Shown in pieces: positions 7,054 to 64,000 of a stretch of 64,000 nt of DNA. A model generated the notes under the pieces. It was given only the letters and a program-made list of their open reading frames with translations, had not been told where the DNA came from and searched no databases. The DNA lies in assembly GCA_965116215.1 (NCBI GenBank), contig OZ220494.1, positions 1,499,992 through 1,563,991 on the forward strand, given 5' to 3'. Source of the DNA: Bdellovibrionales bacterium (lineage in GTDB: Bacteria; Bdellovibrionota; Bdellovibrionia; Bdellovibrionales; JAKFYE01). The stretch's first letter is position 1; the number at the start of each line of letters is the position of its first letter. Both the position numbers and the translations under genes were made by a program.

Positions 7054-7120
7054 GCTTGTACACTTTTAGATAGAACGCTTCTTGAAGTGTCATTGAAGTT
7101 TAGAACCCATCCTAGGAGGA

Positions 7121-7339: not shown

Positions 7340-7365
7340 GCAGCAAATTTCTATTGCTGTTAGAG

Positions 7366-7393
7366 CCCTTGGGTCCTACCCAAGGGTTTTTTT
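7366..7393 (+). terminator. Rho-independent terminator of the H1-like gene
   Basis: Perfect 8-bp stem cccttggg / cccaaggg with loop tccta, followed by T7 (7387..7393). Confidence 0.75.
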
Positions 7394-7440
7394 ATAGAGC
7401 CCCTCTCTTTTATATGGATGAGAAAAGGTATGTAGAATGC

Positions 7441-8253
7441 TTAGAGGGCAATTCTCGCTTTAATTCCCTCCTCTTGGAGGAACTTTTTTATAGCTTCTTT
7501 GTCTAATTCTTTTAGACGCCAGATCATCTCTTTTATTAATGAAAGAGTTTCCTCTGTTTCTTCAGATCGTAAACCGTGGCTTATTGCAGCGATATCCCCA
7601 CTGATTTGAACTATATTTTTTAGTAATTCCTTCAATTGCTTCTGATTAGATGTTTTTTCCAACAACATTAAGGTTTTATTAAAATGAATTACGAGACTTT
7701 CCATTGTCTTTATGGTGTTTGACATCTGTGCTTTGTTTTCTTCAAAGAAATTTATGAGTTGTTTTGCCAGCCCATAGGACTGTGAAAGAAATTGATCGAT
7801 GCGTGGAGGATCTTCTCCTCTAACAATATCTCCTGATTGTATATGTGGTGAATCCAGAGTTCCTGGAGAGACTTCAATATACTTTTCTCCTATAATACCT
7901 GCCAAATTAATATAAAAACGACTGTCTTTTCGTATAGAACTCCATGCCGATTTAGAAATAGATATTTTTATGTTAAGTTTGACTTCTTCACCACCTGGCA
8001 TTTTCATTTCTGGATGAAAAACAATATCCTCGACCTTTCCTGCTTTGATACCCATAACCCTTACCGGAGAGCCGACCTCTATCCCCCCTGCAAAATTATA
8101 CATAACATTTAATGTATATGGGCTTGAAAAAGGATTAAAGGCACCTAAAAGATAGGCAAAGCTCACAACAAGAGCAAATGTAAGAAAAAATAAAACTCCA
8201 ACTTTAGTTTCAATATTCATATTTGTTCCTATTTTAAAAATACCCTTTCTCAT
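7441..8253 (-). CDS. MlaD/MCE-domain substrate-binding protein with C-terminal helical extension
   Basis: N-terminal TM (VGVLFFLTFALVVSFAYLLG) and an MCE core (GGIEVGSPVRVMGIKAGKVEDI). It is the last gene of the ABC operon. Confidence 0.8.
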   Translation of the reverse strand: MRKGIFKIGTNMNIETKVGVLFFLTFALVVSFAYLLGAFNPFSSPYTLNVMYNFAGGIEVGSPVRVMGIKAGKVEDIVFHPEMKMPGGEEVKLNIKISISKSAWSSIRKDSRFYINLAGIIGEKYIEVSPGTLDSPHIQSGDIVRGEDPPRIDQFLSQSYGLAKQLINFFEENKAQMSNTIKTMESLVIHFNKTLMLLEKTSNQKQLKELLKNIVQISGDIAAISHGLRSEETEETLSLIKEMIWRLKELDKEAIKKFLQEEGIKARIAL

Positions 8254-8329
8254 TTAATTCTAAAACATTTAAGATACCCCTATAGAAAAACAAGAGCTTT
8301 TAAACCATCCTCTGTTTTGTCTTCATCTT

Positions 8330-9103
8330 TTAGTAGAACAGAGAAAATCCCCAAGATAAAATAAAATCTAAGACAATAATAGCCACTGAGCTGGTGACTA
8401 CGCTGTTAGTTGTAGATATCCCTACGCCTTCAGCCCCTGGTCGGCAGTGTAATCCGAAGTAACAACTTGTTAATGGAATAACAGCTCCAAAAATAGTCCC
8501 CTTGATTATAGCTAATAAAAAATCATTCATTCCTACAAAACGGCTCATAACAGATAAAAAAGTACCGTAGGTATAGCCTAATTTAAAATGGCTGACTAAC
8601 ATGGCACCAAGTAAACAGGTGGCATTAGAGATAACAGTGAGACATATGCCTGCCATGATGCACGCTATGAGTCGGGGGACAACAATAAATTGTATGGGGT
8701 CAATGTTTAACATTTTAAGGGCATCTATCTGCTCTGTAATTTTCATGCTTCCCACTTCAGCTGTAATGCCTGCACCCACCCGACTTGTTAAAAGTAAGGC
8801 GGCCAAAATCACTCCCAATTCTCTTAGAATTAATAAAGTGGCAAAGCCGGGAACCAGAGCGTCGTTTTTAATAACGAGTTTCATATGAAAAGAGGATTCA
8901 ATCACTATGACTATCGACGCAAAACTGACACAAAATACAATGATCCATAGGCTTTGATTGGAAATGTAATAAAATTGTTGTGTGATGTCTTTAAATCGTG
9001 GGCGAGTGGAGACTAAGATCCAAAGGGTTTGAGTGAGCAATGTGATGTATTTTTTGACCGCTTGAATTATCAATATCAAATATCTTCCTATTATAGAAAA
9101 CAA
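8330..9103 (-). CDS. MlaE/YrbE-family ABC permease (copy 2)
   Basis: Polytopic protein with the MlaE signature MKITEQIDALKMLNIDP. Confidence 0.85.
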   Translation of the reverse strand: MFSIIGRYLILIIQAVKKYITLLTQTLWILVSTRPRFKDITQQFYYISNQSLWIIVFCVSFASIVIVIESSFHMKLVIKNDALVPGFATLLILRELGVILAALLLTSRVGAGITAEVGSMKITEQIDALKMLNIDPIQFIVVPRLIACIMAGICLTVISNATCLLGAMLVSHFKLGYTYGTFLSVMSRFVGMNDFLLAIIKGTIFGAVIPLTSCYFGLHCRPGAEGVGISTTNSVVTSSVAIIVLDFILSWGFSLFY

Positions 9104-9104
9104 G

Positions 9105-9872
9105 TCAATCTCCTAGTCCCAAGACGGTTTCACTTATAAGACTTGTGAGCCAATCACAAACGACAATAGATATCATTGTAATCACTGCTGTTTTAACAAC
9201 AGCATCTCCCACTCCCCTTGCTCCACCTGTTGTTGAATATCCCTTAAATGTACAAACAGTTGCCAAGACTATGGAAAAGGTAAGGCATTTAAATAACCCC
9301 GAGAGAATAGAATAAAATGTAACAAAGGTAGGTATGTGTCTAAAGTATTCAGCGATGCTTATATTTGAAAATGTTATTCCTAAAATAACCCCCCCAGCAA
9401 TAGACATGATGAGTCCAACACCTAAGAGGAGAAAGCTAGAGACAATAATGCCAATGAATCGAGGTAAAATAATCTCTTCAATAGGATTAGCCCCCAAACA
9501 ACGAATGGCATCTATTTGGTCTGTGACTTTCATAACGCCCAACTCTGCTGCAGTAAATGCCCCCACTTTTCCACTTAACATTAAAGCCATCAATAATGGC
9601 CCGACTTCTCGAAATGTCACACTTGTGACCAATCCACCCAAGGAGCCCAAAGCTCCAAATTCTTTAACTTGTAGTGTGAATTGCACAGCCATAATAGCAC
9701 CAACAAAAAATCCAGCCCATGCTGTCGTCGGCCAGCTCATTTGAAAAACCCTATAAATTTGAAAAACAATGGCTCGATAAGAACAGGGTTTTCGAAAACC
9801 TGTGATTAGAATTCTGTGCAAGAAAATAAAAATCTCTCCTGTATTAAAAAAGAAATGGGAGAAGGGCTTCAT
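9105..9872 (-). CDS. MlaE/YrbE-family ABC permease (copy 1)
   Basis: Polytopic protein with MKVTDQIDAIRCLGANP. It is clearly a paralog of 8330..9103. Confidence 0.85.
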   Translation of the reverse strand: MKPFSHFFFNTGEIFIFLHRILITGFRKPCSYRAIVFQIYRVFQMSWPTTAWAGFFVGAIMAVQFTLQVKEFGALGSLGGLVTSVTFREVGPLLMALMLSGKVGAFTAAELGVMKVTDQIDAIRCLGANPIEEIILPRFIGIIVSSFLLLGVGLIMSIAGGVILGITFSNISIAEYFRHIPTFVTFYSILSGLFKCLTFSIVLATVCTFKGYSTTGGARGVGDAVVKTAVITMISIVVCDWLTSLISETVLGLGD

Positions 9873-10609
9873 GTTCGATCCTCTAAAACCTCACTTAGAA
9901 AGGCTTTGACTAAAGGATTTTTACTCTTTTTTATTTCCTCTGGAGTTCCTTGCTCTATAAAGTGGCCTTGGTCCAAGATCATAATTCTGTCAGCAATATC
10001 CAAAGCGCATCCCATATCATGACTGACAACTAGAGAAATTGTTTTTAATTTACGAGATAATTTTTGTATCAGAGAATTGATAGCGTTCATGCTAATGGGA
10101 TCAAGTCCTGTTGTCGGTTCATCAAATAATAAGATTTGAGGTTGAATAGCTAGGGTACGTGCCAAACTGACTCTTTTTTGCATTCCATAAGAGAGTTCTT
10201 CGGGAAATTTGGGCAGGATAGAATTTTCTAAATGAACAAGCTGAATACATTCATGAATACATTCTTTAATTTCAATCTCTTTAAATTGAAAGTGTTTACG
10301 CAATCCAAAAGCTATATTTTCGTAAATTGTAAAAGAGTCAAAAAGGGCTGGCTGTTGGAAGACCATTCCGCATTTTTTGCGTATAGAAAAGTATTCAGAC
10401 TCTTTTAATTCAGATACATTTTGATCATTGATCCATATTTCACCCGTATCAGGTCTTAATAATCCCACAATACTTTTTAATAAAACAGACTTTCCTGTTC
10501 CTGAAACACCTAATATAAATAGAATTTCATTCTGTTGAACTTGAAAAGTAATATTTTTTAAAACCGATGTTGCACCAAAAGACTTGCTCACATTTTTGAA
10601 AACAATCAC
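9869..10609 (-). CDS. ABC transporter ATP-binding protein, MlaF-like (copy 2)
   Basis: Walker A GVSGTGKS, signature LSYGMQKRVSLAR, Walker B ILLFDEPTTGLDP. The ORF track extends to 10636. I prefer the GTG at 10609, which overlaps the upstream TGA stop as GTGA and gives MIVFKNVSKSFG. Confidence 0.85.
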   Translation of the reverse strand: MIVFKNVSKSFGATSVLKNITFQVQQNEILFILGVSGTGKSVLLKSIVGLLRPDTGEIWINDQNVSELKESEYFSIRKKCGMVFQQPALFDSFTIYENIAFGLRKHFQFKEIEIKECIHECIQLVHLENSILPKFPEELSYGMQKRVSLARTLAIQPQILLFDEPTTGLDPISMNAINSLIQKLSRKLKTISLVVSHDMGCALDIADRIMILDQGHFIEQGTPEEIKKSKNPLVKAFLSEVLEDRT

Positions 10610-11355
10610 TTCAGCCCCGTTAATGGGCCAATACATTCGCCCCTAATAAATTGTTGCACTCGTGGATCGGTATGTGTTTTTGTCTCGTGTTCATTGCCTG
10701 TTATAATAAGTTCTCCATTACATAAGAAACCAATCTGGTCTCCCAATTGATAGGCCCTATGTATGGTGTTGGTGACGAAAATAATTGTGGTCTGGTGTTT
10801 TTCTCTAGAACTCATGATGAGTTGGATGATTTTGCGACTAGTTATAGGGTCTAAGCCGGCTGTGGGATTATCATAAAAAATAACTTCTGGATTTAAGACT
10901 AAGGTTCTAGCAATGCTTAAACGCTTTTGCATCCCACCACTGATTTCATTGGGAAAAAGATCTTTGGCGTGCCAAAGATCAAAAGTCTTTAAAAAATATT
11001 TTATTTTTTGTTGAACTTCACTGTGATTAAAACTTCCTGATTCTATGAGTGGAAAACCAATATTTTCTGCAAGAGTTAAAGAATCAAACAATGCACCCCT
11101 TTGAAACAACATTCCCATGCGGCGCAATAAATGCTGACGTTCATTGCCACGTAATGTCACCAAATTTTTTCCATCAATTTCTACATGACCTGATGTTGGA
11201 GGAAGAATACCGGCGAGTATTTTTAAAAGGACAGATTTACCTCCTCCGCTGGGGCCGATTAAGGCCAATGAATTCCCTTTGTGCACCTCAAAGTGCACAT
11301 TCTTTAACACATCCTCTGAGTTCCATTTTTTGTTTATGTTAATAGCTCGAATCAC
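10606..11355 (-). CDS. ABC transporter ATP-binding protein, MlaF-like (copy 1)
   Basis: Walker A GPSGGGKS, signature ISGGMQKRLSIAR, Walker B VIFYDNPTAGLDP. Confidence 0.85.
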   Translation of the reverse strand: MIRAININKKWNSEDVLKNVHFEVHKGNSLALIGPSGGGKSVLLKILAGILPPTSGHVEIDGKNLVTLRGNERQHLLRRMGMLFQRGALFDSLTLAENIGFPLIESGSFNHSEVQQKIKYFLKTFDLWHAKDLFPNEISGGMQKRLSIARTLVLNPEVIFYDNPTAGLDPITSRKIIQLIMSSREKHQTTIIFVTNTIHRAYQLGDQIGFLCNGELIITGNEHETKTHTDPRVQQFIRGECIGPLTGLK

Positions 11356-49055: not shown

Positions 49056-51512
49056 TTAATGATGCTGCTGTAGGGAATGGCCAGTATAGCGAGCTCGTAT
49101 TCCATGGGTTCTTTCTGCCCGCACTTTAAACAGATCAGAGGCCTTTTTGATATCAAGAGCATTAACTAAAACTTGATCAACATGGTCTACAAGGATGATT
49201 TTTAAATCTTTTTTCACTTCTTTAGGGATATCTTTAAGAGACTTTTCGTTTTCTTTAGGTATGATAACAGTTTTTATATGAGTTCGGTGGGCTGCTAATG
49301 TTTTTTCTTTTAAACCGCCAATAGCTAAAATGCGTCCCCTTAAAGTGACTTCGCCAGTCATTGCCACCGTTCTTTTGACAGGGATTTTTGTAATAGCGGA
49401 GACAATACTTGTGATAATGGCTATGCCAGCGGAGGGCCCGTCTTTGGGTATAGCTCCTGCAGGGGCATGAATATGGACGTCTATATTTTGGTAAAATTCT
49501 GTGTCGAACCCAAATAAAGGACCTCTGGACCTCACATAACTGAGGGCTGCAGAGCAAGACTCTTTCATGACATCTCCAAGTTGACCAGTAATCGTGAATT
49601 TTCCTTTTCCAGGAACGACAGAGACTTCAATGGCTAATAAGTCACCTCCTGCTTCTGTCCATGCGAGTCCATTTGTCAAACCAATTTCATTTTTGTCTTC
49701 TAATTTATCTTGCTTAAAATCGGGACCTTCTAAGAGTGTGTTTATTTTCTTTAGTGTTATAGAGATGGGTTTTTGGGTATTTTTTTTAAGGATTTCTCGT
49801 GCGACTTTTCGACAAACTGTTGCAATTTTTCGTTCTAACCCGCGAACACCTGCTTCACGTGTATACCCTTTTATTAAAGTTTGAAGGGCACTATCTGTAA
49901 ATGAGATTTTTTTATCTTTAAGTCCGTGATTTTCTATCTGTTTGGGTAATAAGTACTGTTTACCGATGTTGAACTTTTCTATAAAAGTATATCCTTCAAT
50001 ATGAATGATTTCCATTCGATCCATTAAGGGCTTGGGAATTGTGTGTAAACTATTTGCCGTAGTGATAAACATAACTTTAGAAAGGTCATACTCAACTTCT
50101 AGATAATGATCTTGAAAAGAAATATTTTGTTCGGGATCGAGAACTTCTAATAGAGCAGAAGAGGGGTCACCTCGAAAGTCAGTGCTCATTTTATCAATTT
50201 CATCTAATAACATAAGAGGGTTACCTGAATTGGCCTTTTTCATAGACTGAATAATTCGACCCGGCATTGCTCCAACGTATGTTCGACGATGTCCTCGTAT
50301 TTCAGCTTCATCTCTGACTCCTCCCAAAGATATGCGTACAAATTTTCGATTCATAGCTCTGGCTATAGATTTTCCAAGTGAAGTTTTTCCTACCCCTGGG
50401 GGGCCAACCAGACAGAGAATGGAACCCTTTAATGATTGATTAAGGGTGTGTACAGCTAAATGCTCTAATATTCTTTCTTTAACTTTTTCTAATCCATAGT
50501 GATCTGCATTGAGAATTTTTTCTGCTTTTTCTAGATCCTTTTTAACAGGAGCATATTCTAACCAAGGTAAAGAGATCATCCAGTCTATATAGTTTCTGAT
50601 AACAGTTGCCTCTGCACTCATCGGTGACATCATTTTTAGTTTCTTGATCTCTTTTTGGGTTTTGGTGAGAGCCTCTTTCGGCATTTTCTTTTTTTTCAGT
50701 TGAGTTTCTAACTCTTGAATTTCAGCTTGAAAATCGTCTTTTTCTCCCAGCTCTTTTTGGATAGCTTGCATTTGTTCGTTGAGATAATACTCCTTTTGAG
50801 AGCGTTCCATTTGTTTTTTTATGCGGCTTCGGATTTTCTTTTCTACTTCTAGGATTTCAATTTCAGATGTCATCATTCCCAGTAGCTTTTCTAAGCGTTG
50901 TCCAGGGTCTGATATTGTTAAAATGGTTTGTTTATCTTCAATTTTCAAATTGAGTTGAGCCACAATAATATCAGCCAGTTCACTGGGTTGATTAATGGTA
51001 GAAATTTTCATAAGTACTTCAGGAGGAATTCTTTTATTGAGTTTTACGTAGTTTTCAAATGTTAATTTGATAGATCTCATTATAGCACTGGCTTCAACGG
51101 GGTGCTGCGGGACTTCTTTTAGCTCTTCAATTTTGATTTCAAAATATTTCTCTGTTTGAAGATATTCTTTAATTTTCACTCGTGATTTGCCCTCCACAAG
51201 CACTTTAACAGTTCCATCGGGAAGTCTTAACAGTTGAATAATTGTACTGCGAGTTCCAATATCATAGATTTCATTAGGTTTAGGATCGTTTGTTTTGGCC
51301 TCTTTTTGTGCTGCCAAAATAATGGAAGATCCTCGATTCATTGCCTCTTCCAGGGCGTGAACACTTTTTTCTCGACCAACGAACAGTGGCATCATCATGT
51401 GGGGAAAAACAATTAAATCTCTGAGAGGAAGTAAGGGGAATTGGTCATGGGGCACTGATATGTTGTTTTCAGATTCTCCAGTTTCCTTTTTGTTATTTTT
51501 TGTATCATCCAC
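49056..51512 (-). CDS. lon: ATP-dependent Lon protease
   Basis: LON N-domain, Walker [10 protein letters not shown], protease Ser in KDGPSAG and Lys in IGGLKEK. Confidence 0.96.
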
Positions 51513-51553
51513 GATACACTCTCCTTCATATTTTGAGAAGGTGGGGAGAATAT

Positions 51554-52852
51554 CTATGCGCTTTCGGCCTTGCTCCCCCTTTTGACTTTCTCAATTGTTG
51601 CTTTTTTATCCTTACGTTGGTAAATGAGTTGAGGTTTTTCTTCACCGCGAATAACCCTATCTGTAATTATACATTCTTTAATGTCTTTCTTGGAAGGGAT
51701 TTCATACATGATGTCTAGCATGGCTGTCTCCATAACACCTCTGAGGCCTCTAGCCCCTGTTTTTCTAGACAGAGCCTCTTCGGCAATAGCTATGACAGCC
51801 TCTGGTTGAAATGTCAGCTTCACGTCTTCAAAACCAAATAGCTTTACATATTGTTTGGTGAGTGCATTTTTGGGCTTTTCTAGGATGTCTATTAGGGCAT
51901 TTTTTGTTAAAGTGTCTAAAACGGCAGCAACTGGAAGTCGACCAATGAATTCAGGAATAAGACCAAACTTAACAAGATCATCTGGTTGCATTAGCCTGAG
52001 AATGTTACTGGACTGTTCTTTTTCTTTTTGGGTTTGAATATTAGCAACAATACCCATTGCTTTGTTGGAGACTCTGCTTTCTATGACTTTATCTAGTCCG
52101 ACAAAAGCTCCACCTACGATAAACAGAATATTAGAAGTATCAACTTGAATGAATTCTTGTTGAGGATGTTTCCTTCCGCCTTTAGGTGGCAGGTTGGCGA
52201 CGGTGCCTTCAAGAATTTTCAAAAGAGCTTGCTGAACCCCTTCCCCAGAGACATCTCTTGTGATCGAAGGGTTTTCCGATTTTCTACAGATTTTATCTAT
52301 TTCATCAATGTAGATCACACCCTTTTCTGCTTTTTCGACATCATAGTTAGCAGATTGCAGTAAATTGAGAACAACATTCTCCACATCTTCTCCAACGTAT
52401 CCAGCTTCTGTTAAAGTTGTTGCATCGGCCATGGCAAAAGGAACATTTAAGATACGAGCAATAGTTTGAGCGAGAAGAGTTTTTCCTGAACCTGTGGGAC
52501 CGAGGAGGAGTATGTTGCTTTTTTGTAATTCTACATCGTCTTTTTTGTTTTTAGATGTGATTCTTTTGTAATGATTATGAACGGCGACAGAAAGAGATTT
52601 TTTGGCTAGCTCCTGTCCTATGACATAATCATCCAGATGCTGCTTTATGGTTTTAGGAGTGGGAACTTTGAAATCTGCATCATTTAGTGTTTCGCGTTTA
52701 TTTTCCTCTTCGATGATATCGTTACAAAGATCGATACACTCATCGCAAATGTAGACATCAGGTCCTGCGATCAGCTTCTTTACCTCTTGTTGCGTTTTTC
52801 CACAAAAGCTACATGATAATTGTTGTTTTTTCGAATTGCCTTTTTTACTCAC
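51554..52852 (-). CDS. clpX: ATP-dependent Clp protease ATP-binding subunit ClpX
   Basis: Zn-finger CSFCGK...CDEC, Walker [18 protein letters not shown] prefer the GTG at 52852 (GGAGG upstream; 13 residues before the first Cys, as in E. coli) over the TTG at 52894 in the ORF track. Confidence 0.95.
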
Positions 52853-53480
52853 TCTTGTCCTCCATGTTTTTTCGGCTAGAGACAATTTGATCAATGAGCC
52901 CTAATTCTTTTGCTTTATCAGGGTCCATAAAATGGTCTCTGTCCATGGCTTCCACCAAAAATGTATAATCCATATTAGTATGACTTTCGTAAATTTTTGT
53001 TAAGTGTTCTTTTGTTTTTATCAGCTCCTTTGCATGTATTTCTATATCGCTAGCTTGACCTGAAAGTCCACCTTGTAGAAGGGGTTGGTGTATCATAATT
53101 TTGGAATTGGGAAGGGTGTATCGTTTTCCCTTTGTGCCAGCAATTAATAAAAGGGATCCCATGCTGGCCGCCAATCCTGTGCAGATAGTTGTTATATCAC
53201 ACTTTACAAATTGCATAATGTCATAAATGCCTAAACCTGCAGTGACGCTACCGCCAGGGGAATTTATATAGAGTTGGATATCTTTTTCAGGGTTTTCCAT
53301 TTCAAGGAACAACATTTGGGCAACAACTAGGTTAGCAATTTCGTCAGTGATAGGTGTGCCTAGGAATATAATACGGTCCTTTAGCAGTCTGGAATAAATA
53401 TCATAACTTCTTTCACCTCGAGATGTTTGTTCAATCACCATTGGTATTAACGCCATGGGTGTGCCCTCTTTTTTGTTCAC
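52845..53480 (-). CDS. clpP: ATP-dependent Clp protease proteolytic subunit
   Basis: [21 protein letters not shown], catalytic Ser in GLAASMGS and His in IMIHQP. Confidence 0.96.
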
Positions 53481-55266: not shown

Positions 55267-56139
55267 TTACTTTTTTTGTAAACTCTGAATATCATCTATA
55301 GATAGGCCAGTGATTTTTTGGATGGTTGAGGTGTCAAATTTTTCTTTTAGCATTTTCATGGCGACTTTTTTTAAGCCTTCCTCTAAGCCTTCTTCACGGG
55401 CAAAATCTTTTTCTGCCATCTGGTCACGAAGAAACTTTATTCGAGCCTCTTCTTCCATTCTGAGTTCCTCATCTTTTGATAGGCGTTTTAGATGGACTAC
55501 GGCTTCTTTCATATCTTGATTCCTGTTTGATAATACTTGTAGTTCATTGGGTTTTATTTCGTTTGAATGCTTTAAAGTATAGCACCATTGATCTCGTATA
55601 TCAATTAAATCCTCAATCTTCTTGTTAAACTTCTTTAATTCTACAAATATAATTTTTAAATCATTATTGAAACAGAAATGTGGAGGTTGATCTGAGAGTA
55701 ACGAAAAGCAAGTGACAAAGTCTGTAGACTCTTTGAATACTTTAAAATCAGTAGTAAAAATGAGTGAATAGGTGGGGGAAACCTTCTTATAGGGCTCTGA
55801 GACTGTTAAATCTTCAGTGTAGAGTTTGGCCCAATAAAAAAGGACTCTGGATAAGAAATCTTTCTTTTGAGATGCTTGCATTTCTACATTGATTTTCTCT
55901 TTATTGTTTAATCTTAATTTTAAATCTAGAATAATCTGCTTTTTTTCTTTTGTATCTGGAAGGTTTTGAGAATTAAGAATATCGATACGCTCGATCTTTT
56001 GATCAGGGAGTAGGGGCAAAAAGGCTTTAAGCAAGGAGAGGAGAACTTTTTTATTTTTTGTAAAATAGATCTTAAACATGAGATCTTGAGTGAGCTTAAT
56101 GTAGGAATTTTCTGATGGCTTTATATGTTTTTTTCTCAT
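55267..56139 (-). CDS. Rpn-family recombination-promoting nuclease / PD-(D/E)XK putative transposase
   Basis: N-terminal PDDEXK_2 pattern LTQDLMFKIYFTKNKKVLLSLLKAFLP ... IILDLKLRL..EKINVEMQ. The C-terminal helical tail ends ...TIQKITGLSIDDIQSL, typical of this family. Confidence 0.75.
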   Translation of the reverse strand: MRKKHIKPSENSYIKLTQDLMFKIYFTKNKKVLLSLLKAFLPLLPDQKIERIDILNSQNLPDTKEKKQIILDLKLRLNNKEKINVEMQASQKKDFLSRVLFYWAKLYTEDLTVSEPYKKVSPTYSLIFTTDFKVFKESTDFVTCFSLLSDQPPHFCFNNDLKIIFVELKKFNKKIEDLIDIRDQWCYTLKHSNEIKPNELQVLSNRNQDMKEAVVHLKRLSKDEELRMEEEARIKFLRDQMAEKDFAREEGLEEGLKKVAMKMLKEKFDTSTIQKITGLSIDDIQSLQKK

Positions 56140-56944: not shown

Positions 56945-57212
56945 ATTGATATCTAGGGTAATGTTATAGAGATGCAGATGAATATCTATTCCATTTTGTT
57001 CTATCGACTCCGAATATCTTAGAATGTAAATATAAATACGGACATAATCCAGTGGCTATAGAGAATCACTTCCTATCTTTGAGTCAAGATAAGGACCTTA
57101 CTTTGATGCAGTTATTGAAATTGTCTTACTTTGCTTTTTCCATATGGAAGGAAAATTCTTTTGATAGAGGATCTATGATTGTTTTTACTTCAATTCCAAT
57201 ATCTTAAACATA

Positions 57213-57321
57213 AAGCAAGTATATAAAGAGATTAAGATCTCGAGAGAGGTAGCAGGGTCCACGAAAGTACACCACTTGGTTGAAGCAAGTATATAAAGAG
57301 AGATAAGATCTCGACAGAGAG
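57213..57321. repeat. Two imperfect direct repeats of 36 and 39 bp separated by 34 bp (70-bp period)
   Basis: AAGCAAGTATATAAAGAGA-TTAAGATCTCGAGAGAG (57213..57248) and AAGCAAGTATATAAAGAGAGATAAGATCTCGACAGAGAG (57283..57321). The unique spacer is gtagcagggtccacgaaagtacaccacttggttg. Confidence 0.8.
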
Positions 57322-57580
57322 TCTGTTCTCTCTCTCGTATTGAAACAATTGAAAAAGAGATTGCGACTGGAATTTGTTTTATATTGAGATGTAAAATGGA
57401 AATTCAGTCATTGCTCTAAAGTATAAAAATATAAAAGCCGACAACGAGGACTGTTATAACTGTCAAATTCAATTTAAACAATCAGCCTATCGAGATCTTT
57501 TGTGCCAGTTTGTACATATTCTGTATTTTATTAACAGAATACAGAGAAATGGTTTGTTTTTATCCAAAGAGGGGGAATTG

Positions 57581-59401
57581 ATGAAAATACTTTTGGGGCT
57601 TTGGGAGAAACATCCGATGTCAGTTATTTTAATAGGTGTCTTCTTTTTAATTACTGTTGGTTTTCTGATCCGCAAGTGGCGAGTTTTATATAAAGAGACA
57701 AAGCGTTTAAAAAATGATATTTATGACTCTACTCATACACTCCCTCAGAGTGATCATAGGAATACCTTTGCACAAGATTATGGTCAAAAGATCGATCCAA
57801 GGCTGAGTGAGGAGAGGTGTGTTTTTAGTCATTTGTGGAAAGAATTTACTGAGCAATTGATAAAGCCAACATCCAATAGTAAAGAGCAGGTTTTTCAAAA
57901 CAGTATCCGACCTCAGAAATTTTTTACATTAGAAGCTCTTTGTAAGAAAAAGGGAGGGCTCAATTTAAAATCTATGGAATCTGTTTCTGGGATATTAGTT
58001 GCACTAGGAGTTTTGGGAACTTTTTTGGGACTAACTCTATCTTTATTATCCCTATTGGATCCTTCTGGAATTAAGGTCGATGATTCCACTATTAAGAATC
58101 TTCTTTCAGGTGCCAGTGTTGCCTTTATCACTTCTGTTGTGGGGCTTTTTTGCAGTTTGGTATTTAGTGTTGTATTCGATCGTAAAATATTTCAAGTGGA
58201 GTGTAGCCTGGAGGATTTTAACTCTAGGCTGGAAAAAAGCTGTAAGTTTATAACGGAGGAGCATCTGTTAAATGAACACTTGGCGCAACTGAATAAACAT
58301 TTGGGGAGTATGGATGAGGCAATAGCATTAAAGGTTGGCGATCAAATAGAGTGTATGGGCGAAAGACTTCGGGGAGAGATTTCAAAGGGCCATCAAAATA
58401 TATCAGAAAAGTTTCTCTCTGATATTGTGAATAAAATGACTTCAGGTCTGGGAGAGTTTTCTAAAAAACAGATGGCCACTATAGATCACACCTTAACGGT
58501 TCTATCAGAGAACCTTCCTTCTTTATTATCAGATCTTAAAAATGTACAAAAAGAAAGCGAAAGCCAAGTGAAAGAAGTTCTAAGTGATATAGCCGTTAGT
58601 GCTAGGGATAGCCAGCAGTCAATAAATACATCTCTTGCCGAGACAGTTTCAAATATGAAAACTGAATTTGAGGGTATAATTGATAACTTGAAGCAGGGTA
58701 TGAGTGAAACTCTTTCTCATTCTTCAGGTGAGATGAAAGAAGTCATATCTTCTCTTGGTCAGGTGAATCAAAAAATTTTAAAGCGGGCCAATGAGTCACA
58801 TGCCGTTTATACAAGATCGTTCAATGAAACAGCTCATAAACTCCATTCTTTTGTGAGTCGTCTGGAAGAAGCCCTATCTGAAATCAATGGCACTACAAGT
58901 GAGAATATTAGAGAGGCGATTGACCATTTTTATAAAGCGGCAGAAAAACAAGAAGAGATTGCTGAAAAAAATCAACAGCACATTCAGTCCTTAAATAATT
59001 TAACGGAGTCTTTGCAACCTCTTCCCCATTCTTTATCGAAGATCACTCAAGACTTTTCTGAGCTTGTTCAACAAATCAATAACTCTAATGAAAAATTGCA
59101 GACTTCGTGGAGCAATTATGAATCTCGATTTGAAAATGTTGATAAATCTGCAAAGGAAGTATTTGAGAAAATAACAGAGGGTTTAAAGGATCTGTCAAAT
59201 AAGAGTGCTAATTATATTCATGAGTTAAACGGAAAAACGAGTGAAATATCGGGGCATTTTTCTGGAGCTGTTGAAGATTTAAGGGAGTCTATTGACGACT
59301 TTTCAAATAAACATCCTGAATATAATAAATTCTTTCATTCGGTTGAAAAGCTAAGCAAGGCTATTGAGGATCTTTCAAGTCATAGAGAAAAAGCGAGTTA
59401 G
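57581..59401 (+). CDS. zorA: ZorA-like protein: MotA/ExbB/TolQ-type channel domain with a helical tail of about 400 aa
   Basis: Start chosen at ATG 57581 (AGAGGGGG 5 nt upstream). Three TM helices carry the MotA/ExbB signatures SGILVALGVLGTFLGL and ASVAFITSVVGLFCSL. Residues from about 200 to 606 have no hydrophobic segments and are E/K/S/L/N/Q-rich (coiled-coil-like). It is the first gene of a four-gene operon. Confidence 0.78.
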   Translation: MKILLGLWEKHPMSVILIGVFFLITVGFLIRKWRVLYKETKRLKNDIYDSTHTLPQSDHRNTFAQDYGQKIDPRLSEERCVFSHLWKEFTEQLIKPTSNSKEQVFQNSIRPQKFFTLEALCKKKGGLNLKSMESVSGILVALGVLGTFLGLTLSLLSLLDPSGIKVDDSTIKNLLSGASVAFITSVVGLFCSLVFSVVFDRKIFQVECSLEDFNSRLEKSCKFITEEHLLNEHLAQLNKHLGSMDEAIALKVGDQIECMGERLRGEISKGHQNISEKFLSDIVNKMTSGLGEFSKKQMATIDHTLTVLSENLPSLLSDLKNVQKESESQVKEVLSDIAVSARDSQQSINTSLAETVSNMKTEFEGIIDNLKQGMSETLSHSSGEMKEVISSLGQVNQKILKRANESHAVYTRSFNETAHKLHSFVSRLEEALSEINGTTSENIREAIDHFYKAAEKQEEIAEKNQQHIQSLNNLTESLQPLPHSLSKITQDFSELVQQINNSNEKLQTSWSNYESRFENVDKSAKEVFEKITEGLKDLSNKSANYIHELNGKTSEISGHFSGAVEDLRESIDDFSNKHPEYNKFFHSVEKLSKAIEDLSSHREKAS

Positions 59402-59415
59402 GAAGGAGTGTTTGC

Positions 59416-60318
59416 ATGAAGGGTCTATCTCAATACAGCCTTTGTTTTAGTGATGTCATGATGGGACTTTTGTTTGTTTTTATATTACTTCTTGTAAAAT
59501 TTATGCTGGAGTCTCAAGAGGCTAAAAAAAACTTTGAGAGTCGTAGAGAAAAATTATTAAATCCTCTGAAGAGCAGAGCAGAATTGTTGTTGGAAATAAA
59601 AAATGCAATGAAAAAGAAGGGAATAGAAGTTCAGATCGATCAAGAAAATGGTGTGCTCACTTTAGAGAATATGAATTACTTTGATAAAGGCCGTTATACA
59701 TTGAGTGCTAAAGGGAAAAGGCAATTCACAAAGATCAAGGAGATTCTAGCGCAAAATATCATATGTTATTCTGATTTAGAGACATTGAAAAAGCAGGATT
59801 CAAGGATAGAGAACCGCTCGGTCTGGAAGTCTTATTATAAGCAGTGTCCTAAGAGCAAAAATGCCTTGATTGATTCTATTTTGATTGAAGGCCATGCGGA
59901 CCCTACACCTATTGGTCCTACCTTAAAGCGCAAGGAGAACATTCAAACCAATATAGACTTGGCCATGAAAAGATCTCAGACGATCTTTTATTTTTTAACA
60001 GAGTATAAAGAGTCTAAAGCAAAGGGTAATTATCTCTATTATTTATTAAACAAAAGGGGGAATTCCTTATTTGGTATCACATCTTATGGGAGTTTAAGAC
60101 CGAAGCATTCAGGAAAATCAAGGGATCGTTCTCCCCCTCCCCCTCCCCCTTCTCCTTTTTCTGCCTCAAAGGCCACAGATTATGATCGTGTTCCCTCCTC
60201 TGAGGGCCATGAGGATCGGCGTATTGATATGCGGTTTATTATGGCTCAACCAGAAAAATTAAAGTTAGAACTCAGGAAAATTATAGAAAATAGGAGTCAT
60301 ACAGAGTATGCAAAGTAA
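59416..60318 (+). CDS. zorB: ZorB-like protein: MotB-type TM/plug plus OmpA-like peptidoglycan-binding domain
   Basis: N-terminal CFSDVMMGLLFVFILLL (conserved Asp before the TM, as in MotB/ExbD-type stators). OmpA-like blocks ILIEGHADPTPIG, NIDLAMKRSQTIFYFL and RRIDMRF. It starts 14 nt after zorA. Confidence 0.8.
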   Translation: MKGLSQYSLCFSDVMMGLLFVFILLLVKFMLESQEAKKNFESRREKLLNPLKSRAELLLEIKNAMKKKGIEVQIDQENGVLTLENMNYFDKGRYTLSAKGKRQFTKIKEILAQNIICYSDLETLKKQDSRIENRSVWKSYYKQCPKSKNALIDSILIEGHADPTPIGPTLKRKENIQTNIDLAMKRSQTIFYFLTEYKESKAKGNYLYYLLNKRGNSLFGITSYGSLRPKHSGKSRDRSPPPPPPSPFSASKATDYDRVPSSEGHEDRRIDMRFIMAQPEKLKLELRKIIENRSHTEYAK

Positions 60319-61789
60319 ATTTTTTTTAAAAGACTTTTTAAAAAGTGAAATAAAGAGAAAAAATTCAAATTCTGTTTGGGATAATCTCTCTGAAAAGATA
60401 GCCCCCTATAAAAATGAAATAGAGAGGCATATCGCAAAACTGAGTCATTGTGAACTCAAAGAACGACCCACTTTGAGTGTAAAAGATATCTATGATGGGT
60501 ATCAAAAAATCTGGAATGAACATCAAACCATTAGGGGCGTTTCATCCAGAGAGTTAAAGGACTATTTTTTTATTTTATTTTCTAATCCTCAAGAGGGAGT
60601 TTCTACAGGTTTGTATGACGGCCCAGAGCAGTTTGATGATTTTTTGAATGTTATTGTTGAAAAAGGTCGGCAGAGTTATTTGAAAAGACTTATTTCAGAA
60701 CTATTTTATAATTATCCTAAAGATGAAGAATTTTTTGGGAGATTAGAAAAAGTATTTACCCACTTAGACAGAAAGAGGAGAAGTCATCAGTCTTTATTCA
60801 AAGCTCATATACAATTTCGTCTGATTGGGAAAGAGGGTCCTTCTCATATAGCAAGAGCTATATTAGATCCACAAAAGGAATTGTCTTCTGATGTTCTCTC
60901 TAAGATTTGGTTAAAAGAGCGACATCTCTTAGGAGGAATCGGGAAAGCTATTGTGAAAGAGCTTTGTAATCTGGCCTCAGAGCCTATTGAGCGAGAAGAT
61001 AAAGCCGTCTTAGATCGTTTTTTAGACTATCTCTCCAACAGTCGTGCTGTTTCCGCTAGGGAGGAAATCTCCAATTCAGATATGGGACCCACAGCCCGAT
61101 TTACTGATCCCAAACCTATTGTCTCTGTTTTATTGAGGCCCTTTGAAAATCAGATGCCCTCAAGGTCAATACAAAATACCATCACACAATTTCTAGATCG
61201 ATATGTTGGGGATCCACGTTTCAAGTCTGAAAAATGGATGGCCATGGGTAAGGAAAAGGAGATTTTTTTAAGATGGAAAATCGGTGAAACTATAGAAGAT
61301 TTTTTATCACTCCTTTCTTATACTGCCAATCAGGATCCTATGGCTCAGCGAATGTGGGGTTATCGTAAAGAATTTATAAAGGCATACTGGGAGGCTGGCC
61401 ATATAAGAAAAGCTTGGATTGTTTTGGGAAGGAAGGATTATGACAATCGATTAAAGTTTTTAAAAAGAGACTTTAATGGTTATGGAAAAATTATTAAAGG
61501 GGCACAGAGTAATCACTCTTGTTTACTTCTTCAAATTGGTGATCTGATTCTCTCTGAATGGAATTATAATGGAAAGGTAAGGATTTGGAATGAAAATGAA
61601 GAAGATAAGCATTCCCCTCCTTTCTATAAAGGAGAATATTCAAAAGAGGATTTGGTGAGTCCCTCCCAAAAAAAATTTGTTCATAGACAGGATAAACGAT
61701 ACAGTTGGCAGAAAAAACTGAGTTGGTATATTGAGGAAAACACTGGCATTGAGTGCCCTGATGTCCTTTTGAGAAAAATCTATATATAG
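60308..61789 (+). CDS. zorC: ZorC-position protein (expected EH-signature domain protein)
   Basis: 493-aa soluble protein that overlaps zorB by 11 nt and ends 13 nt before the SNF2 gene. The call rests mainly on operon position. The C-terminal block NHSCLLLQIGDLILSEWNYNGKVRIW is where an EH-signature would be expected, but I cannot verify the domain by eye. Confidence 0.6.
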   Translation: MQSKFFLKDFLKSEIKRKNSNSVWDNLSEKIAPYKNEIERHIAKLSHCELKERPTLSVKDIYDGYQKIWNEHQTIRGVSSRELKDYFFILFSNPQEGVSTGLYDGPEQFDDFLNVIVEKGRQSYLKRLISELFYNYPKDEEFFGRLEKVFTHLDRKRRSHQSLFKAHIQFRLIGKEGPSHIARAILDPQKELSSDVLSKIWLKERHLLGGIGKAIVKELCNLASEPIEREDKAVLDRFLDYLSNSRAVSAREEISNSDMGPTARFTDPKPIVSVLLRPFENQMPSRSIQNTITQFLDRYVGDPRFKSEKWMAMGKEKEIFLRWKIGETIEDFLSLLSYTANQDPMAQRMWGYRKEFIKAYWEAGHIRKAWIVLGRKDYDNRLKFLKRDFNGYGKIIKGAQSNHSCLLLQIGDLILSEWNYNGKVRIWNENEEDKHSPPFYKGEYSKEDLVSPSQKKFVHRQDKRYSWQKKLSWYIEENTGIECPDVLLRKIYI

Positions 61790-61802
61790 TTTGGGAGTTT
61801 AT

Positions 61803-64000
61803 ATGGAATTTAAAGTCAACGATGATTATATAATATTTCAGTTTAAAAAAAAGGAACTCACAGACGATATCAAGGGATTGTTATCTACATTAGAGGCTAA
61901 ATACGAAAAGGGTTTGGCCTATGTATCACATGCTCGTCTCGCCGATAGCAATGCTCATGAGATAAAAAAATTAGGACTTCCCGCTGTTTACCCACACCGT
62001 TTAGAGATAAAAACAAGAGGGCGACCCATAACCCCTGCTTTTTCTTCAGAGCAAATATATTCTGATGAACAATCTAGAAAGTTTTATCAAGTCAAAAGAG
62101 TCGGTGTTATTTTAGAATTAGATGGTAAAAAATTTACTTTAACAAACCCTCACTTTCTTTTTTTAGAAAATATAGAAAAGCTGTCTTCTCATATTAAAAG
62201 TCCCGGGGAGCGTTTGCGCCTTTGGTCTGAAGTTATAAAGACAGCTCCAAAAGAATGTGTATCAGCCAATAAAGAATTGCTCGATTTTTCTTTTATTCAA
62301 GCCAATCAATTTTGTTTAGATAAGAAAGTTCTCTTTGGGCAGGAGTTTAAAATTGTTCCGGATCTGATTTATACAAAAAATGAAGGCGATGAAGAATGCT
62401 CTATAAGTCATCAACTTCCAAAGGGCATTTCGCAAGAATTTAAACAGGGATTTTTGAAATCAGATGGTGTTGATCCCTATTATAAAATTGGCCCCTGCTA
62501 TATACAGATTTCAAAACCCTTGAGGATTTGTTTACAAATTATAAAAAAAATAAACGAAGAGCCTTTGGAAAATAGACGGGCCTTCTATATGTCTCCTATG
62601 GAGAGAATTAAAAATGAGCTTTCTGAGGATTTACCAGAAGATTTGATAGAAGATATATTTTTTGAAACGAAACAATTTATAAGTGATCGCATTTCTCATA
62701 TTGGAAAGTGGGTTCCAAAGTTGGGAGTTTATGTTGACCCTGAGAGTAACAACCCTTGGTTTCCAAAAGAGAATATTGTGTCCAAAATCGGAAACAGCCT
62801 CTTTCACTTTAATCCTGATGATTTGGATAAAGTTATCACAGATATGGAAGAGAAAAAGGAAAAAGGGGAAGACGTTTTTATTTATAAAGATCAAGCCGTT
62901 CCTATTAATGATGAAAGCATTTCAGAACTTAAAAGGGTTCGGAGGAATATCATTAGAGAAGGTGAAAATCTAACCAGTCTATCTGATGAATCAAAACAAA
63001 AGAAAAAATTATCTAGATTAGTGGCTATTATAAAGGATAATATTGATAATACCAAAGTTTATGAGTCTAGAAGACGTGAGCCCAGGGATTTGCAAAAAGG
63101 GATTCCCTTAGAGTTAAAGGATAAATTCAATAAGTATCCACATCAAGAAGAGGGCTTGTTTTGGCTGCAAGAAAATTTTATATGTGGAGTCCCCGGAGGG
63201 CTTTTGGCAGATGATATGGGGCTTGGAAAGACGTTTCAATCCCTTGCCTTTTTATATTGGTATAAGCAGTGTGTTTCAGATGCAAAACCTGCATTGATTG
63301 TGGCCCCCACAGGTCTTTTAAAGAACTGGCAAGATGAGTGTGAGGAACATTTGTTACAACATGGAGGACTAGGAAGGAAATATAAGGCCTATGGGGAATC
63401 TTTTAGAAGGGATAGAAAAAACTCCGTATTATCAGTCATCGAAGAAATGAAAAAAGCAGATTGGGTTTTGACAACTTATGAAGCGGTTAGGGATCATCAT
63501 AAGAATTTTTTTATTAAAGTATCATGGGGTATTGTCATATTTGATGAAATCCAAAAAATAAAAAATCCTAACTCATTAATGACAGATGCGGCAAAGGCTC
63601 TTGCGAGTGATTTTTCTATCGGTCTGACAGGAACTCCTATTGAGAATAGTTTTGTCGACTTATGGTGTATATCAGATTGTTTACGTCCAAAAATTCTTGG
63701 TTTATTAAAGGATTTTCATAATAAATATATAAGAGGTAAAGGAAATGGAGGTGAAATTCAAGAAAAGTTTAATCAGAACACCCCTCCCTTTATGTTAAGA
63801 AGAATGAAAAGTGACATACTTCATGATTTGCCAAAGAAAAACATTATTGTAAAAAAGGTAAATATGACAGATGAACAAAAGGAGGTCTATTCCGAAGTAC
63901 TGAGAAAAACAAAAAACAAAGAATATTCAAATAGTCTTCAGGCTCTCACATTACTCAGGCGATTTTCGATTTATCTTCAAGATTGCGTTGAAGACTCCAA
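61803..64000 (+). CDS. zorD: ZorD-like SNF2-family helicase (3' end beyond window; ORF absent from supplied track)
   Basis: My own translation from ATG 61803 (GGGAG at 61793..61797) is open to nt 64000. SNF2 motifs are YPHQEEGLFWLQENF, GGLLADDMGLGKTFQSLAFL (motif I, about 63195..63250), IVAPTGLLKNWQDE, VIFDEIQKIKN (motif II, about 63535..63565) and GLTGTPIENSFVDLW (motif III). Confidence 0.82.
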   Translation, partial: MEFKVNDDYIIFQFKKKELTDDIKGLLSTLEAKYEKGLAYVSHARLADSNAHEIKKLGLPAVYPHRLEIKTRGRPITPAFSSEQIYSDEQSRKFYQVKRVGVILELDGKKFTLTNPHFLFLENIEKLSSHIKSPGERLRLWSEVIKTAPKECVSANKELLDFSFIQANQFCLDKKVLFGQEFKIVPDLIYTKNEGDEECSISHQLPKGISQEFKQGFLKSDGVDPYYKIGPCYIQISKPLRICLQIIKKINEEPLENRRAFYMSPMERIKNELSEDLPEDLIEDIFFETKQFISDRISHIGKWVPKLGVYVDPESNNPWFPKENIVSKIGNSLFHFNPDDLDKVITDMEEKKEKGEDVFIYKDQAVPINDESISELKRVRRNIIREGENLTSLSDESKQKKKLSRLVAIIKDNIDNTKVYESRRREPRDLQKGIPLELKDKFNKYPHQEEGLFWLQENFICGVPGGLLADDMGLGKTFQSLAFLYWYKQCVSDAKPALIVAPTGLLKNWQDECEEHLLQHGGLGRKYKAYGESFRRDRKNSVLSVIEEMKKADWVLTTYEAVRDHHKNFFIKVSWGIVIFDEIQKIKNPNSLMTDAAKALASDFSIGLTGTPIENSFVDLWCISDCLRPKILGLLKDFHNKYIRGKGNGGEIQEKFNQNTPPFMLRRMKSDILHDLPKKNIIVKKVNMTDEQKEVYSEVLRKTKNKEYSNSLQALTLLRRFSIYLQDCVEDS

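What the first reader, a model, noticed from the sequence alone, without database searches (positions are those of the whole stretch)
61803..64000. Large SNF2-helicase ORF missing from the supplied ORF track because it runs off the window
Reading from ATG 61803 (13 nt after the zorC stop, with GGGAG at 61793..61797) gives at least 732 codons with no stop. The two short ORFs listed inside it (62631..62894 on the minus strand and 62683..62973 on the plus strand) are artefacts. The first 440 aa or so precede the helicase core and have no motif I recognise. The core starts at YPHQEEGLFWLQENF and continues through GGLLADDMGLGKTFQSLAFL, IVAPTGLLKNWQDE, VIFDEIQKIKN and GLTGTPIENSFVDLW. The helicase-C lobe and any C-terminal nuclease-like region lie beyond nt 64000.
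Basis: seen in the sequence. Interest (0 to 1): 0.6.

Follow-up and report, generated by a model that had tools for sequence, protein, structure and literature searches.

The report
Truncated zorD gene of Zorya operon
The open frame at the window's end is the first 732 codons of zorD, the helicase-nuclease effector of an ordinary four-gene type I Zorya anti-phage operon; the only unusual point is that the full protein ends in an HNH nuclease, not the Mrr-like domain usually described.

Summary
Frame +1 from ATG 61803 stays open for 732 codons to the window edge, while the other five frames carry 38-78 stops.

The gene is zorD. It is the last gene of a tight zorA-zorB-zorC-zorD operon (57581..64000+), which is a type I Zorya defence system. 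A database protein, P0001 (1003 aa), begins with exactly these 732 residues. It supplies the missing part: Helicase_C at 743-855 and a C-terminal HNH nuclease at 948-991.

The "unrecognised" first 440 aa are the ZorD-specific N-terminal domain. Its only significant match among solved structures is E. coli ZorD (8qy7), where that domain autoinhibits the enzyme.

The two nested ORFs are artefacts.

The HNH tail replaces the Mrr-like domain usually ascribed to ZorD; E. coli ZorD has no separate nuclease domain. The tail is intact in 42 of the 121 ZorD relatives held, and four of five related loci examined keep the zorABCD order. I found no paper describing this architecture.

Verdict: a real, ordinary member of a known system, with a modestly interesting nuclease swap that lies outside the window.

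The parts
57581..59401 (+). zorA. Encodes the MotA/ExbB-like motor subunit with a long helical tail. The ORF tool lists it from TTG 57500, but the probable start is ATG 57581, preceded by AGGGGG at 57570..57575.
   Evidence: PADLOC ZorA1 E 1e-42 and Pfam MotA_ExbB. PDB ZorA 8qyy/8qyd E 3e-9. Start inferred from the sequence and from PADLOC alignments that begin near residue 40 of the long ORF.
59416..60318 (+). zorB. Encodes the MotB-like stator and peptidoglycan-anchor subunit. The conserved Asp is present in FSDVM (D13).
   Evidence: PADLOC ZorB1 E 4.4e-46. PDB 8vvn_B, a ZorB-type MotB-related protein, E 2e-10, with FSDVM aligned to FSDLM.
60308..61789 (+). zorC. Encodes the EH-signature protein, which binds DNA in E. 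coli. It overlaps zorB by 11 nt.
   Evidence: Pfam EH_Signature E 9.4e-35. PADLOC ZorC1 E 8.6e-75.
61793..61797 (+). GGGAG ribosome-binding site, 5 nt upstream of the zorD ATG.
   Evidence: Read directly in the sequence.
61803..64000 (+). zorD, codons 1-732 of 1003, cut by the window end.
   Evidence: Open frame. PADLOC ZorD1 E 3.6e-153. P0001 is identical over all 732 aa and is 1003 aa long. M1 is conserved in at least 90% of 31 homologues.
61803..63122 (+). ZorD N-terminal domain (aa 1-440). By analogy with E. coli ZorD it is the autoinhibitory domain.
   Evidence: The A1 profile aligns positions 56-183 to EcZorD 86-217 (i-E 1.2e-6) and continues from 297. In the NTD-only AlphaFold model (pLDDT 78.7) the only significant PDB match is 8qy7, E 5.2e-13. 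P60, P186, P265, R296, W319 and N413 are invariant across 45 ZorDs of all tail types.
63141..63938 (+). SNF2 ATPase N-lobe (aa 447-712). Contains Walker A GLGKT at 63219..63233, DEIQ box at 63543..63554 and motif III TGTP at 63627..63638.
   Evidence: Pfam SNF2-rel_dom E 2e-51. G473, G475, K476, T477, E512, D581, E582, Q584 and T609-P612 are invariant in 31 homologues. E512 aligns with EcZorD E651, and D581/E582 with D730/E731.
62631..62894 (-). Nested antisense ORF (87 aa). An artefact.
   Evidence: Lies wholly inside conserved zorD coding sequence.
62683..62973 (+). Nested out-of-frame ORF (96 aa, frame +2 relative to zorD). An artefact.

Best explanation
The ORF is zorD, the last gene of a chromosomal type I Zorya anti-phage operon (zorA-zorB-zorC-zorD). 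The host is an uncultured bacterium that is probably a member of Bdellovibrionota.

The full protein (1003 aa) has four parts: a ZorD-specific N-terminal domain (1-440), an SNF2 ATPase motor (N-lobe 447-712, C-lobe 743-855), a linker, and a zinc-finger HNH nuclease (948-991).

Proposed mechanism:
- Established for E. coli Zorya I: ZorA5B2 is a proton-driven motor anchored to peptidoglycan. It senses envelope perturbation at phage entry and signals through the long ZorA tail to recruit ZorC and ZorD.
- Inferred by homology: here too the N-terminal domain holds ZorD autoinhibited until it is recruited, and the SNF2 motor then engages and translocates on DNA using ATP.
- Inferred from the architecture: in this clade the DNA is cut or nicked by the appended HNH domain. 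E. coli ZorD has no such domain.
For: Gene order and spacing are those of a tight operon: a 14-nt gap, an 11-nt overlap and a 13-nt gap. All four genes hit PADLOC type I Zorya models: ZorA 1e-42, ZorB 4e-46, ZorC 9e-75, ZorD 4e-153 for the fragment and 2e-231 for the full length.

The closest solved structure is E. coli ZorD 8qy7. The profile match is E 6.9e-131 and covers both the NTD and the core. Foldseek on the full-length model gives E 8.7e-49 over 977 columns, against about 500 columns for other SNF2 proteins. The NTD-only model has one significant hit, 8qy7.

The ATPase residues needed for EcZorD activity are invariant here: DE of the DExQ box, and E512, which corresponds to E651 (PMC11946911).

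The HNH domain scores Pfam 32.8 bits against a cut-off of 21.4. C948, C951, D960, H961, N977, C982, C985 and N986 are invariant in 31 homologues down to 32% identity. The motif is intact in 42 of 121 relatives. The model shows a beta-beta-alpha element at 957-987.

Synteny supports the assignment. zorABCD with an HNH-type zorD occurs in L002, L003, L005 and L006. L003 has the same sufE-side insertion site as the window.

There is precedent for an HNH effector under ZorAB control: ZorE of type II Zorya nicks DNA (PMC11890865).
Against: No experiment exists for this clade.

The NCBIfam ZorD equivalog scores only 377 bits against a cut-off of 1500. ZorA is also below its subfamily cut-off, and ZorB and ZorC have no NCBIfam hit. 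This is therefore a divergent lineage: 24% identity to EcZorD in the structural alignment.

In EcZorD, DNA degradation is attributed to the SNF2-containing C-terminal domain and depends on the ATPase site. The HNH domain may therefore not be the only or the main nuclease.

The last 271 residues, including Helicase_C and HNH, are not in the window. They rest on P0001 coming from the same genome; the contig DNA could not be fetched.

The interdomain geometry of the model is unreliable (pTM 0.46).
Confidence: 0.88

Rival explanations
1. It is ZorD, but as in E. coli the DNA degradation depends on the SNF2 core. The HNH tail would be auxiliary: for example a nickase that creates an entry site, a DNA clamp, or a vestige.
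For: The EcZorD C-terminal domain (503-1080) has no recognised nuclease domain. It still degrades DNA, and this depends on D730/E731 and E651 (PMC11946911). The same residues are invariant here. The third catalytic position of the HNH is Asn, not His (CN in all 42 tails). That form is seen in nicking or lower-activity HNH enzymes (from general knowledge, not tested here).
Against: The zinc-binding cysteines, DH and Asn are strictly conserved across 31-71% identity, which argues for a selected catalytic function. Other ZorD clades carry a different nuclease (Mrr_cat PF04471) at the same position. That suggests the tail is the interchangeable cutting module.
Confidence: 0.25
2. It is an SNF2 helicase of another system (Dpd DpdE, DISARM DrmD, a RapA-like housekeeping remodeller) that merely sits next to zorABC.
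For: PADLOC DpdE models also match (up to 304 bits). DrmD and NCBIfam SCO1167 or pilus-regulating Snf2 models match the core.
Against: ZorD models score 2.5-fold higher (769 bits) and align from residue 16-34, that is through the NTD. DpdE and DrmD models cover only the core, from about residue 364-445. The NTD fold matches only EcZorD. No dpd or drm genes are adjacent. The zorABCD order recurs in four other loci.
Confidence: 0.03
3. The locus is a decaying or inactive remnant, or the long ORF is an assembly artefact.
For: One related locus (L004) has an HNH-type zorD without adjacent zorAB. It also has a 341-aa Helicase_C+HNH fragment beside a transposase gene. This shows that such loci can be rearranged.
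Against: In the window all four genes are intact, tightly spaced and carry their key motifs. An independent database entry has the identical 732 residues within an intact 1003-aa protein. A 71%-identical orthologue sits at the same sufE site.
Confidence: 0.03

Closest known systems
E. coli type I Zorya ZorD (EcZorD, PDB 8qy7/8qyc; Hu et al., Nature 2024, PMC11946911)
   Same: Same operon position after zorABC. Homologous N-terminal domain and SNF2 core (profile E 6.9e-131; Foldseek E 8.7e-49 over 977 columns). The Walker A, the DExQ box and the ribose-contacting Glu are conserved.
   Different: Only about 24% identical. EcZorD ends about 15 residues after the SNF2 core and has no separate nuclease domain. 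This protein adds a tail of about 100 aa with a CxxC...DH...N...CxxCN HNH finger. Its NTD is about 60 residues shorter (440 vs 502).
Mrr-type ZorD (the architecture given by Doron et al. 2018 and in PADLOC: 'SWI2/SNF2 helicase, Mrr-like nuclease')
   Same: NTD plus SNF2 core plus a C-terminal nuclease module. Hit by the same PADLOC ZorD models. NTD residues P60, P186, P265, R296, W319 and N413 are shared.
   Different: The C-terminal module is Mrr_cat (PF04471, a PD-(D/E)xK fold) in those proteins and HNH (PF01844, a beta-beta-alpha-metal fold) here. The proteins are about 28-31% identical.
ZorE of type II Zorya (a stand-alone HNH endonuclease that nicks DNA; Mariano et al. 2025, PMC11890865)
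   Same: An HNH nuclease acting as the effector downstream of a ZorAB motor.
   Different: ZorE is a separate protein in a three-gene system with no ZorC and no SNF2 motor. No ZorE model is among the 25 best PADLOC hits of this HNH tail, which are PtuB, PDC-M01B and HNH_I-A. No specific relationship is therefore shown.
Phage GVE2 HNH endonuclease (PDB 5h0m) and Septu/retron PtuB HNH
   Same: Closest solved and profiled relatives of the tail. 5h0m matches at E 2.2e-6 over the FYxSxEW...CxxC...DH...NLQxLC...C motif. PtuB models match at E 6e-9.
   Different: Those are small stand-alone nucleases. 5h0m has His at the last catalytic position, where this clade has Asn.
DpdE (Dpd system) and DrmD (DISARM) SNF2 helicases
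   Same: SNF2 ATPase core in a defence context.
   Different: They lack the ZorD NTD, the zorABC partners and the HNH tail, and their scores are much lower.

Membership tests
Type I Zorya system (zorABCD) | Co-oriented, adjacent zorA (MotA-like with a long tail), zorB (MotB-like), zorC (EH signature) and zorD (SNF2) | tested here: met
   57581..59401, 59416..60318, 60308..61789 and 61803..64000+, all on the + strand. PADLOC E 1e-42, 4e-46, 9e-75 and 4e-153.
ZorD | SNF2-type ATPase N-lobe with Walker A and a DExQ box | tested here: met
   Pfam SNF2-rel_dom E 2e-51. GLGKT 473-477 and DEIQ 581-584 are invariant in 31 homologues.
ZorD | Helicase C-lobe with motif VI | tested here: met
   Outside the window. 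P0001, identical over 732 aa, has Helicase_C at 743-855 (E 1.5e-15). Q846, D849, R850 and R853-Q856 are invariant.
ZorD | ZorD-specific N-terminal domain homologous to EcZorD residues 1-502 | tested here: met
   Profile match 56-183 to 86-217 (i-E 1.2e-6), continuing from 297 to 429. The NTD-only model's single significant PDB hit is 8qy7, E 5.2e-13.
ZorD | Reaches the curated NCBIfam equivalog score (NF041790, 1500 bits) | tested here: not met
   377 bits for full-length P0001 and 242 bits for the window fragment. It is a divergent lineage and would not be named ZorD by that model.
ZorD (as first described) | Mrr-like (PD-(D/E)xK) C-terminal nuclease domain | tested here: not met
   Pfam finds HNH at 948-991 and no Mrr_cat. 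Mrr_cat is present in many other ZorD hits. EcZorD also lacks it, so it is not universal in the family.
ZorD | Autoinhibited ATP-dependent DNA degradation, and recruitment to ZorAB on infection | not testable with these tools
   Known only for EcZorD (PMC11946911).
HNH endonuclease (PF01844) | Beta-beta-alpha-metal motif with a catalytic His and Asn, plus zinc-binding Cys pairs | tested here: met
   Pfam 32.8 bits against a cut-off of 21.4. C948, C951, D960, H961, N977, C982, C985 and N986 are invariant. The model has strands 957-961 and 978-982 followed by helix 983-987. 5h0m matches at E 2.2e-6.
HNH endonuclease | Metal-dependent DNA cleavage | not testable with these tools
   Needs purified protein.
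Type II Zorya effector ZorE | Specific sequence relationship of the HNH tail to ZorE | tested here: inconclusive
   No ZorE model is among the 25 best of 51 PADLOC matches to the tail. Matches ranked lower were not shown.

The most novel reading that the evidence does not exclude
HNH-tailed ZorD may define a distinct, so far undescribed architectural subtype of type I Zorya. In it the SNF2 motor delivers a dedicated HNH nuclease, the same chemistry as the type II effector ZorE. If so, ZorD's C-terminal tail (none, Mrr or HNH) would be an interchangeable cutting module. This clade would then be a cleaner model than E. coli ZorD for separating translocation from cleavage.
Probability: 0.4. Interest if true: 0.4.

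Novelty: new member of a known kind. Interest (0 to 1): 0.27.

Why it matters
Mainly annotation hygiene. A complete, apparently functional Zorya I system sits at the window edge. Its largest gene is invisible to an ORF lister that drops edge-running frames. None of its four proteins reaches NCBIfam naming thresholds, so standard pipelines would probably label them generically.

A secondary point concerns the nuclease. E. coli ZorD degrades DNA without any recognisable nuclease domain, and that remains mechanistically unexplained. A sizeable set of ZorDs, 42 of the 121 closest relatives, carries an intact HNH finger at the C-terminus. This offers a natural test of whether ZorD tails are the cutting module and the SNF2 core only the motor.

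Tried and rejected
- Fetching the source DNA beyond nt 64000 failed. Exact look-ups of P0001, ZorC and ZorB found no recorded gene. The genome-collection scan returned only an unrelated Lachnospiraceae SNF2 gene at 32% identity. The C-terminus therefore rests on P0001.
- Rfam found no RNA family anywhere in the window.
- The promoter and terminator scan of the sufE-zorA spacer found nothing on the + strand.
- ZorC has no sequence-level PDB match. Its identity rests on Pfam and PADLOC.
- I tested whether HNH-type ZorDs form one clade. A neighbour-joining tree on the SNF2 core gave two pure HNH clades (32 and 5 members) that were not resolved as sisters. Distances between them (0.55) are about the same as to non-HNH ZorDs (0.52-0.56). 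Single versus repeated acquisition is left open, because the method is too crude.
- I considered that the HNH might be a homing-endonuclease insertion. I rejected this because it is at the same C-terminal position with intact catalytic residues in all 42 tails.
- Literature searches for ZorD with HNH or Snf2 found only the generic statements "ZorE = HNH, ZorD = Mrr-like".

Full report
OBSERVATION. Translating window 61803..64000 on the + strand gives 732 codons without a stop. The other five frames of the same span hold 38-78 stops. GC by codon position is 0.45/0.30/0.29, a coding-like pattern. The upstream ORF ends with TAG at 61787..61789, GGGAG lies at 61793..61797 and the ATG at 61803, so the gap is 13 nt as stated. 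The quoted motifs are all present: YPHQEEGLFWLQENF from residue 445, GLGKT at 473-477, IVAPTGLLKNWQDE, DEIQ at 581-584 and TGTP at 609-612. One is antisense and the other is in frame +2 of the long ORF. Both lie inside strongly conserved coding sequence and are artefacts. The ORF lister by design omits frames that run off the source, which is why the gene was missing from the track.

IDENTITY. Pfam places an SNF2-related domain at residues 447-712 (E 2e-51). The PADLOC defence library gives ZorD as by far the best family. The fragment scores E 3.6e-153, aligned from residue 33. DpdE and DrmD models are weaker and cover the core only.

The three genes upstream are ZorA, ZorB and ZorC. ZorA hits PADLOC at 1e-42, has a Pfam MotA_ExbB match, and matches ZorA structures 8qyy/8qyd at 3e-9. 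ZorB hits PADLOC at 4e-46 and matches 8vvn_B, with the FSD motif conserved. ZorC hits Pfam EH_Signature at 9e-35 and PADLOC at 9e-75.

Spacing is that of an operon: a 14-nt gap, an 11-nt overlap and a 13-nt gap. The zorA ORF is listed from TTG 57500. An ATG at 57581 behind AGGGGG is the likelier start. This is a type I Zorya system.

THE MISSING C-TERMINUS. A protein search returned P0001 (1003 aa), from a single 1.82-Mb contig held by NCBI and ENA. It begins with exactly the 732 residues encoded in the window. Pfam finds Helicase_C at 743-855 and an HNH endonuclease domain at 948-991 (32.8 bits against a cut-off of 21.4). I could not fetch the contig DNA itself, so this part rests on P0001 coming from the same genome.

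THE FIRST 440 RESIDUES. PADLOC ZorD models align from residue 16-34 onward. A profile built from 31 homologues (A1) matches E. coli ZorD (PDB 8qy7) at E 6.9e-131. Its positions 56-183 align to EcZorD 86-217 (i-E 1.2e-6), and positions 297-902 align to 429-1065.

An AlphaFold2 model of the whole protein has pLDDT 77.7 and pTM 0.46. Its best Foldseek match is 8qy7, at E 8.7e-49 over 977 columns. All other SNF2 enzymes align over only about 500 columns.

A separate model of residues 1-440 has pLDDT 78.7. It has exactly one significant match in the PDB, again 8qy7 (E 5.2e-13); everything else has E above 0.5. Six NTD residues (P60, P186, P265, R296, W319, N413) are invariant across 45 ZorDs of all tail types. 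The region is therefore the ZorD-specific N-terminal domain. In E. coli that domain packs against the SNF2 domain and keeps the enzyme autoinhibited (PMC11946911).

THE TAIL. ZorD has been described as carrying an Mrr-like nuclease domain (Doron 2018, as cited in PMC11890865; PADLOC descriptions). The structurally characterised E. coli ZorD ends just after the SNF2 core. Its C-terminal domain degrades DNA in a manner that depends on the DEAQ box and on E651.

Here the tail is an HNH finger. C948, C951, D960, H961, N977, C982, C985 and N986 are invariant in 31 homologues down to 32% identity. An intact CxxC...DH...N...CxxCN motif is present in 42 of the 121 relatives retrieved, while many of the rest have Mrr_cat or no tail domain. 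The model shows two strands and a helix at 957-987, as expected for a beta-beta-alpha-metal fold.

The nearest solved relative of the tail is the phage GVE2 HNH nuclease 5h0m (E 2.2e-6). The nearest defence profiles are Septu PtuB, and ZorE is not among the best 25.

The motor residues required in EcZorD are conserved: D581/E582 correspond to D730/E731, and E512 to E651.

CONTEXT ELSEWHERE. zorABCD with an HNH-type zorD occurs in L003 (71% identity, at the same sufE-side site as the window, followed by a convergent gshA). It also occurs in L002 (62%), L006 (58%) and L005 (33%, inside a defence island). L004 (31%) has a zorC-sized gene plus an HNH-type zorD. It lacks adjacent zorAB and has a Helicase_C+HNH fragment beside a transposase gene.

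A crude neighbour-joining tree on the SNF2 core gives two pure HNH clades that are not resolved as sisters. I do not claim a single origin.

The window's flank is housekeeping: clpP, clpX, lon, pepA, sufE, rpsB and rseP. The operon's GC content (0.34-0.38) is close to that of the flanking sequence. The best named Lon relatives are Bdellovibrionales MAGs at 71-73% identity, so the host is probably a member of Bdellovibrionota. This is an inference from one marker.

MECHANISM.
- Shown here: gene order, domain architecture, conserved catalytic motifs, and homology of both the NTD and the core to EcZorD.
- Established elsewhere (PMC11946911): ZorA5B2 is a proton-driven, peptidoglycan-anchored rotary motor with a long cytoplasmic tail. 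After phage-induced envelope perturbation it recruits ZorC (DNA-binding) and ZorD. Full-length ZorD is autoinhibited, and its C-terminal part degrades DNA in a manner that requires an intact ATP-binding site.
- Inferred: the same sequence of events applies here. In this clade the SNF2 motor positions or feeds DNA to the HNH finger, which nicks or cuts it. ZorE, an HNH nickase, is the effector of type II Zorya (PMC11890865), so an HNH nuclease under ZorAB control has precedent.
- Main mechanistic rival (about 0.25): the SNF2-core-dependent activity seen in E. coli is the real effector, and the HNH is auxiliary.

COMPARISON AND NOVELTY. The protein meets every structural criterion for ZorD that I could test, with two exceptions. 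It has no Mrr-like domain, which E. coli ZorD also lacks. It also falls far below the NCBIfam equivalog score (377 against 1500 bits). The NCBIfam ZorA match is likewise below its cut-off, and ZorB and ZorC have no NCBIfam hit. It is therefore a divergent new member of a known system.

I found no paper describing an HNH-tailed ZorD. However, such proteins are already numerous in public data and are picked up by PADLOC models, so I rate the architecture as a modest variant at most. The window itself contains only the unremarkable part of the gene.

VERDICT. This is an ordinary zorD cut by the window edge. Interest is low (0.27). The only lead worth keeping is the HNH-for-Mrr swap.

Noticed in passing
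window 57213..57319 (sufE-zorA spacer, 56945..57580): The 636-nt spacer upstream of zorA holds an imperfect direct repeat of about 37 nt: AAGCAAGTATATAAAGAGA..TAAGATCTCGA(G/C)AGAG, two copies 70 nt apart. The 19-mer occurs nowhere else in the window (0.03 expected by chance). There is no Rfam hit, no consensus promoter on the + strand, and only weak folding (z -1.8). It may be a regulatory site for the operon.
   Followed up: partly
window 57500..57581: The zorA ORF is listed from TTG 57500, but ATG 57581 with AGGGGG at 57570..57575 is the likelier start. That gives 606 aa, similar to the 583-606 aa of ZorA in L002, L003 and L005.
   Followed up: partly
window 55267..56139 (-): A PD-(D/E)XK_2 'transposase' (Rpn-like) gene lies between pepA and sufE, about 1.4 kb upstream of the Zorya operon. 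GC dips locally to 0.31. In L003 an 87-aa gene occupies the position before sufE. This may mark a variable or insertion-prone site.
   Followed up: no
window 57581..61789 and P0001: None of the four Zorya proteins reaches an NCBIfam naming threshold. ZorA scores 158 against 190 bits, ZorD 377 against 1500, and ZorB and ZorC have no hit. PGAP-style annotation would probably leave this system unnamed, although PADLOC models detect it clearly.
   Followed up: yes
L004 811..1836 and 6553..11087: A distant HNH-type zorD (31% identity) is preceded only by a 483-aa zorC-sized gene, with no zorAB within 8 kb. A separate 341-aa Helicase_C+HNH fragment lies next to an HTH_Tnp_1 transposase gene. It looks like a rearranged or orphaned effector pair.
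   Followed up: no
L005 11721..16566; L006 14108..18049: Other HNH-type Zorya I loci sit among further defence-like genes. These include a ScoMcrA-like DNA-SBD/HNH_2 protein, a WYL protein, AAA_11/AAA_12 helicases, a small HNH protein, and an RNase_H_2+AAA_30 protein of 1107 aa. The window copy instead sits among housekeeping genes.
   Followed up: no
window 49056..53480 (-) and whole window: A clpP-clpX-lon cluster is present. The best named Lon relatives are Bdellovibrionales or Bdellovibrionota MAGs at 71-73% identity, and one unnamed hit reaches 91%. The host is probably an uncultured member of Bdellovibrionota with a genome of about 1.8 Mb. No tRNA, rRNA or other Rfam family was found in 64 kb.
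   Followed up: partly
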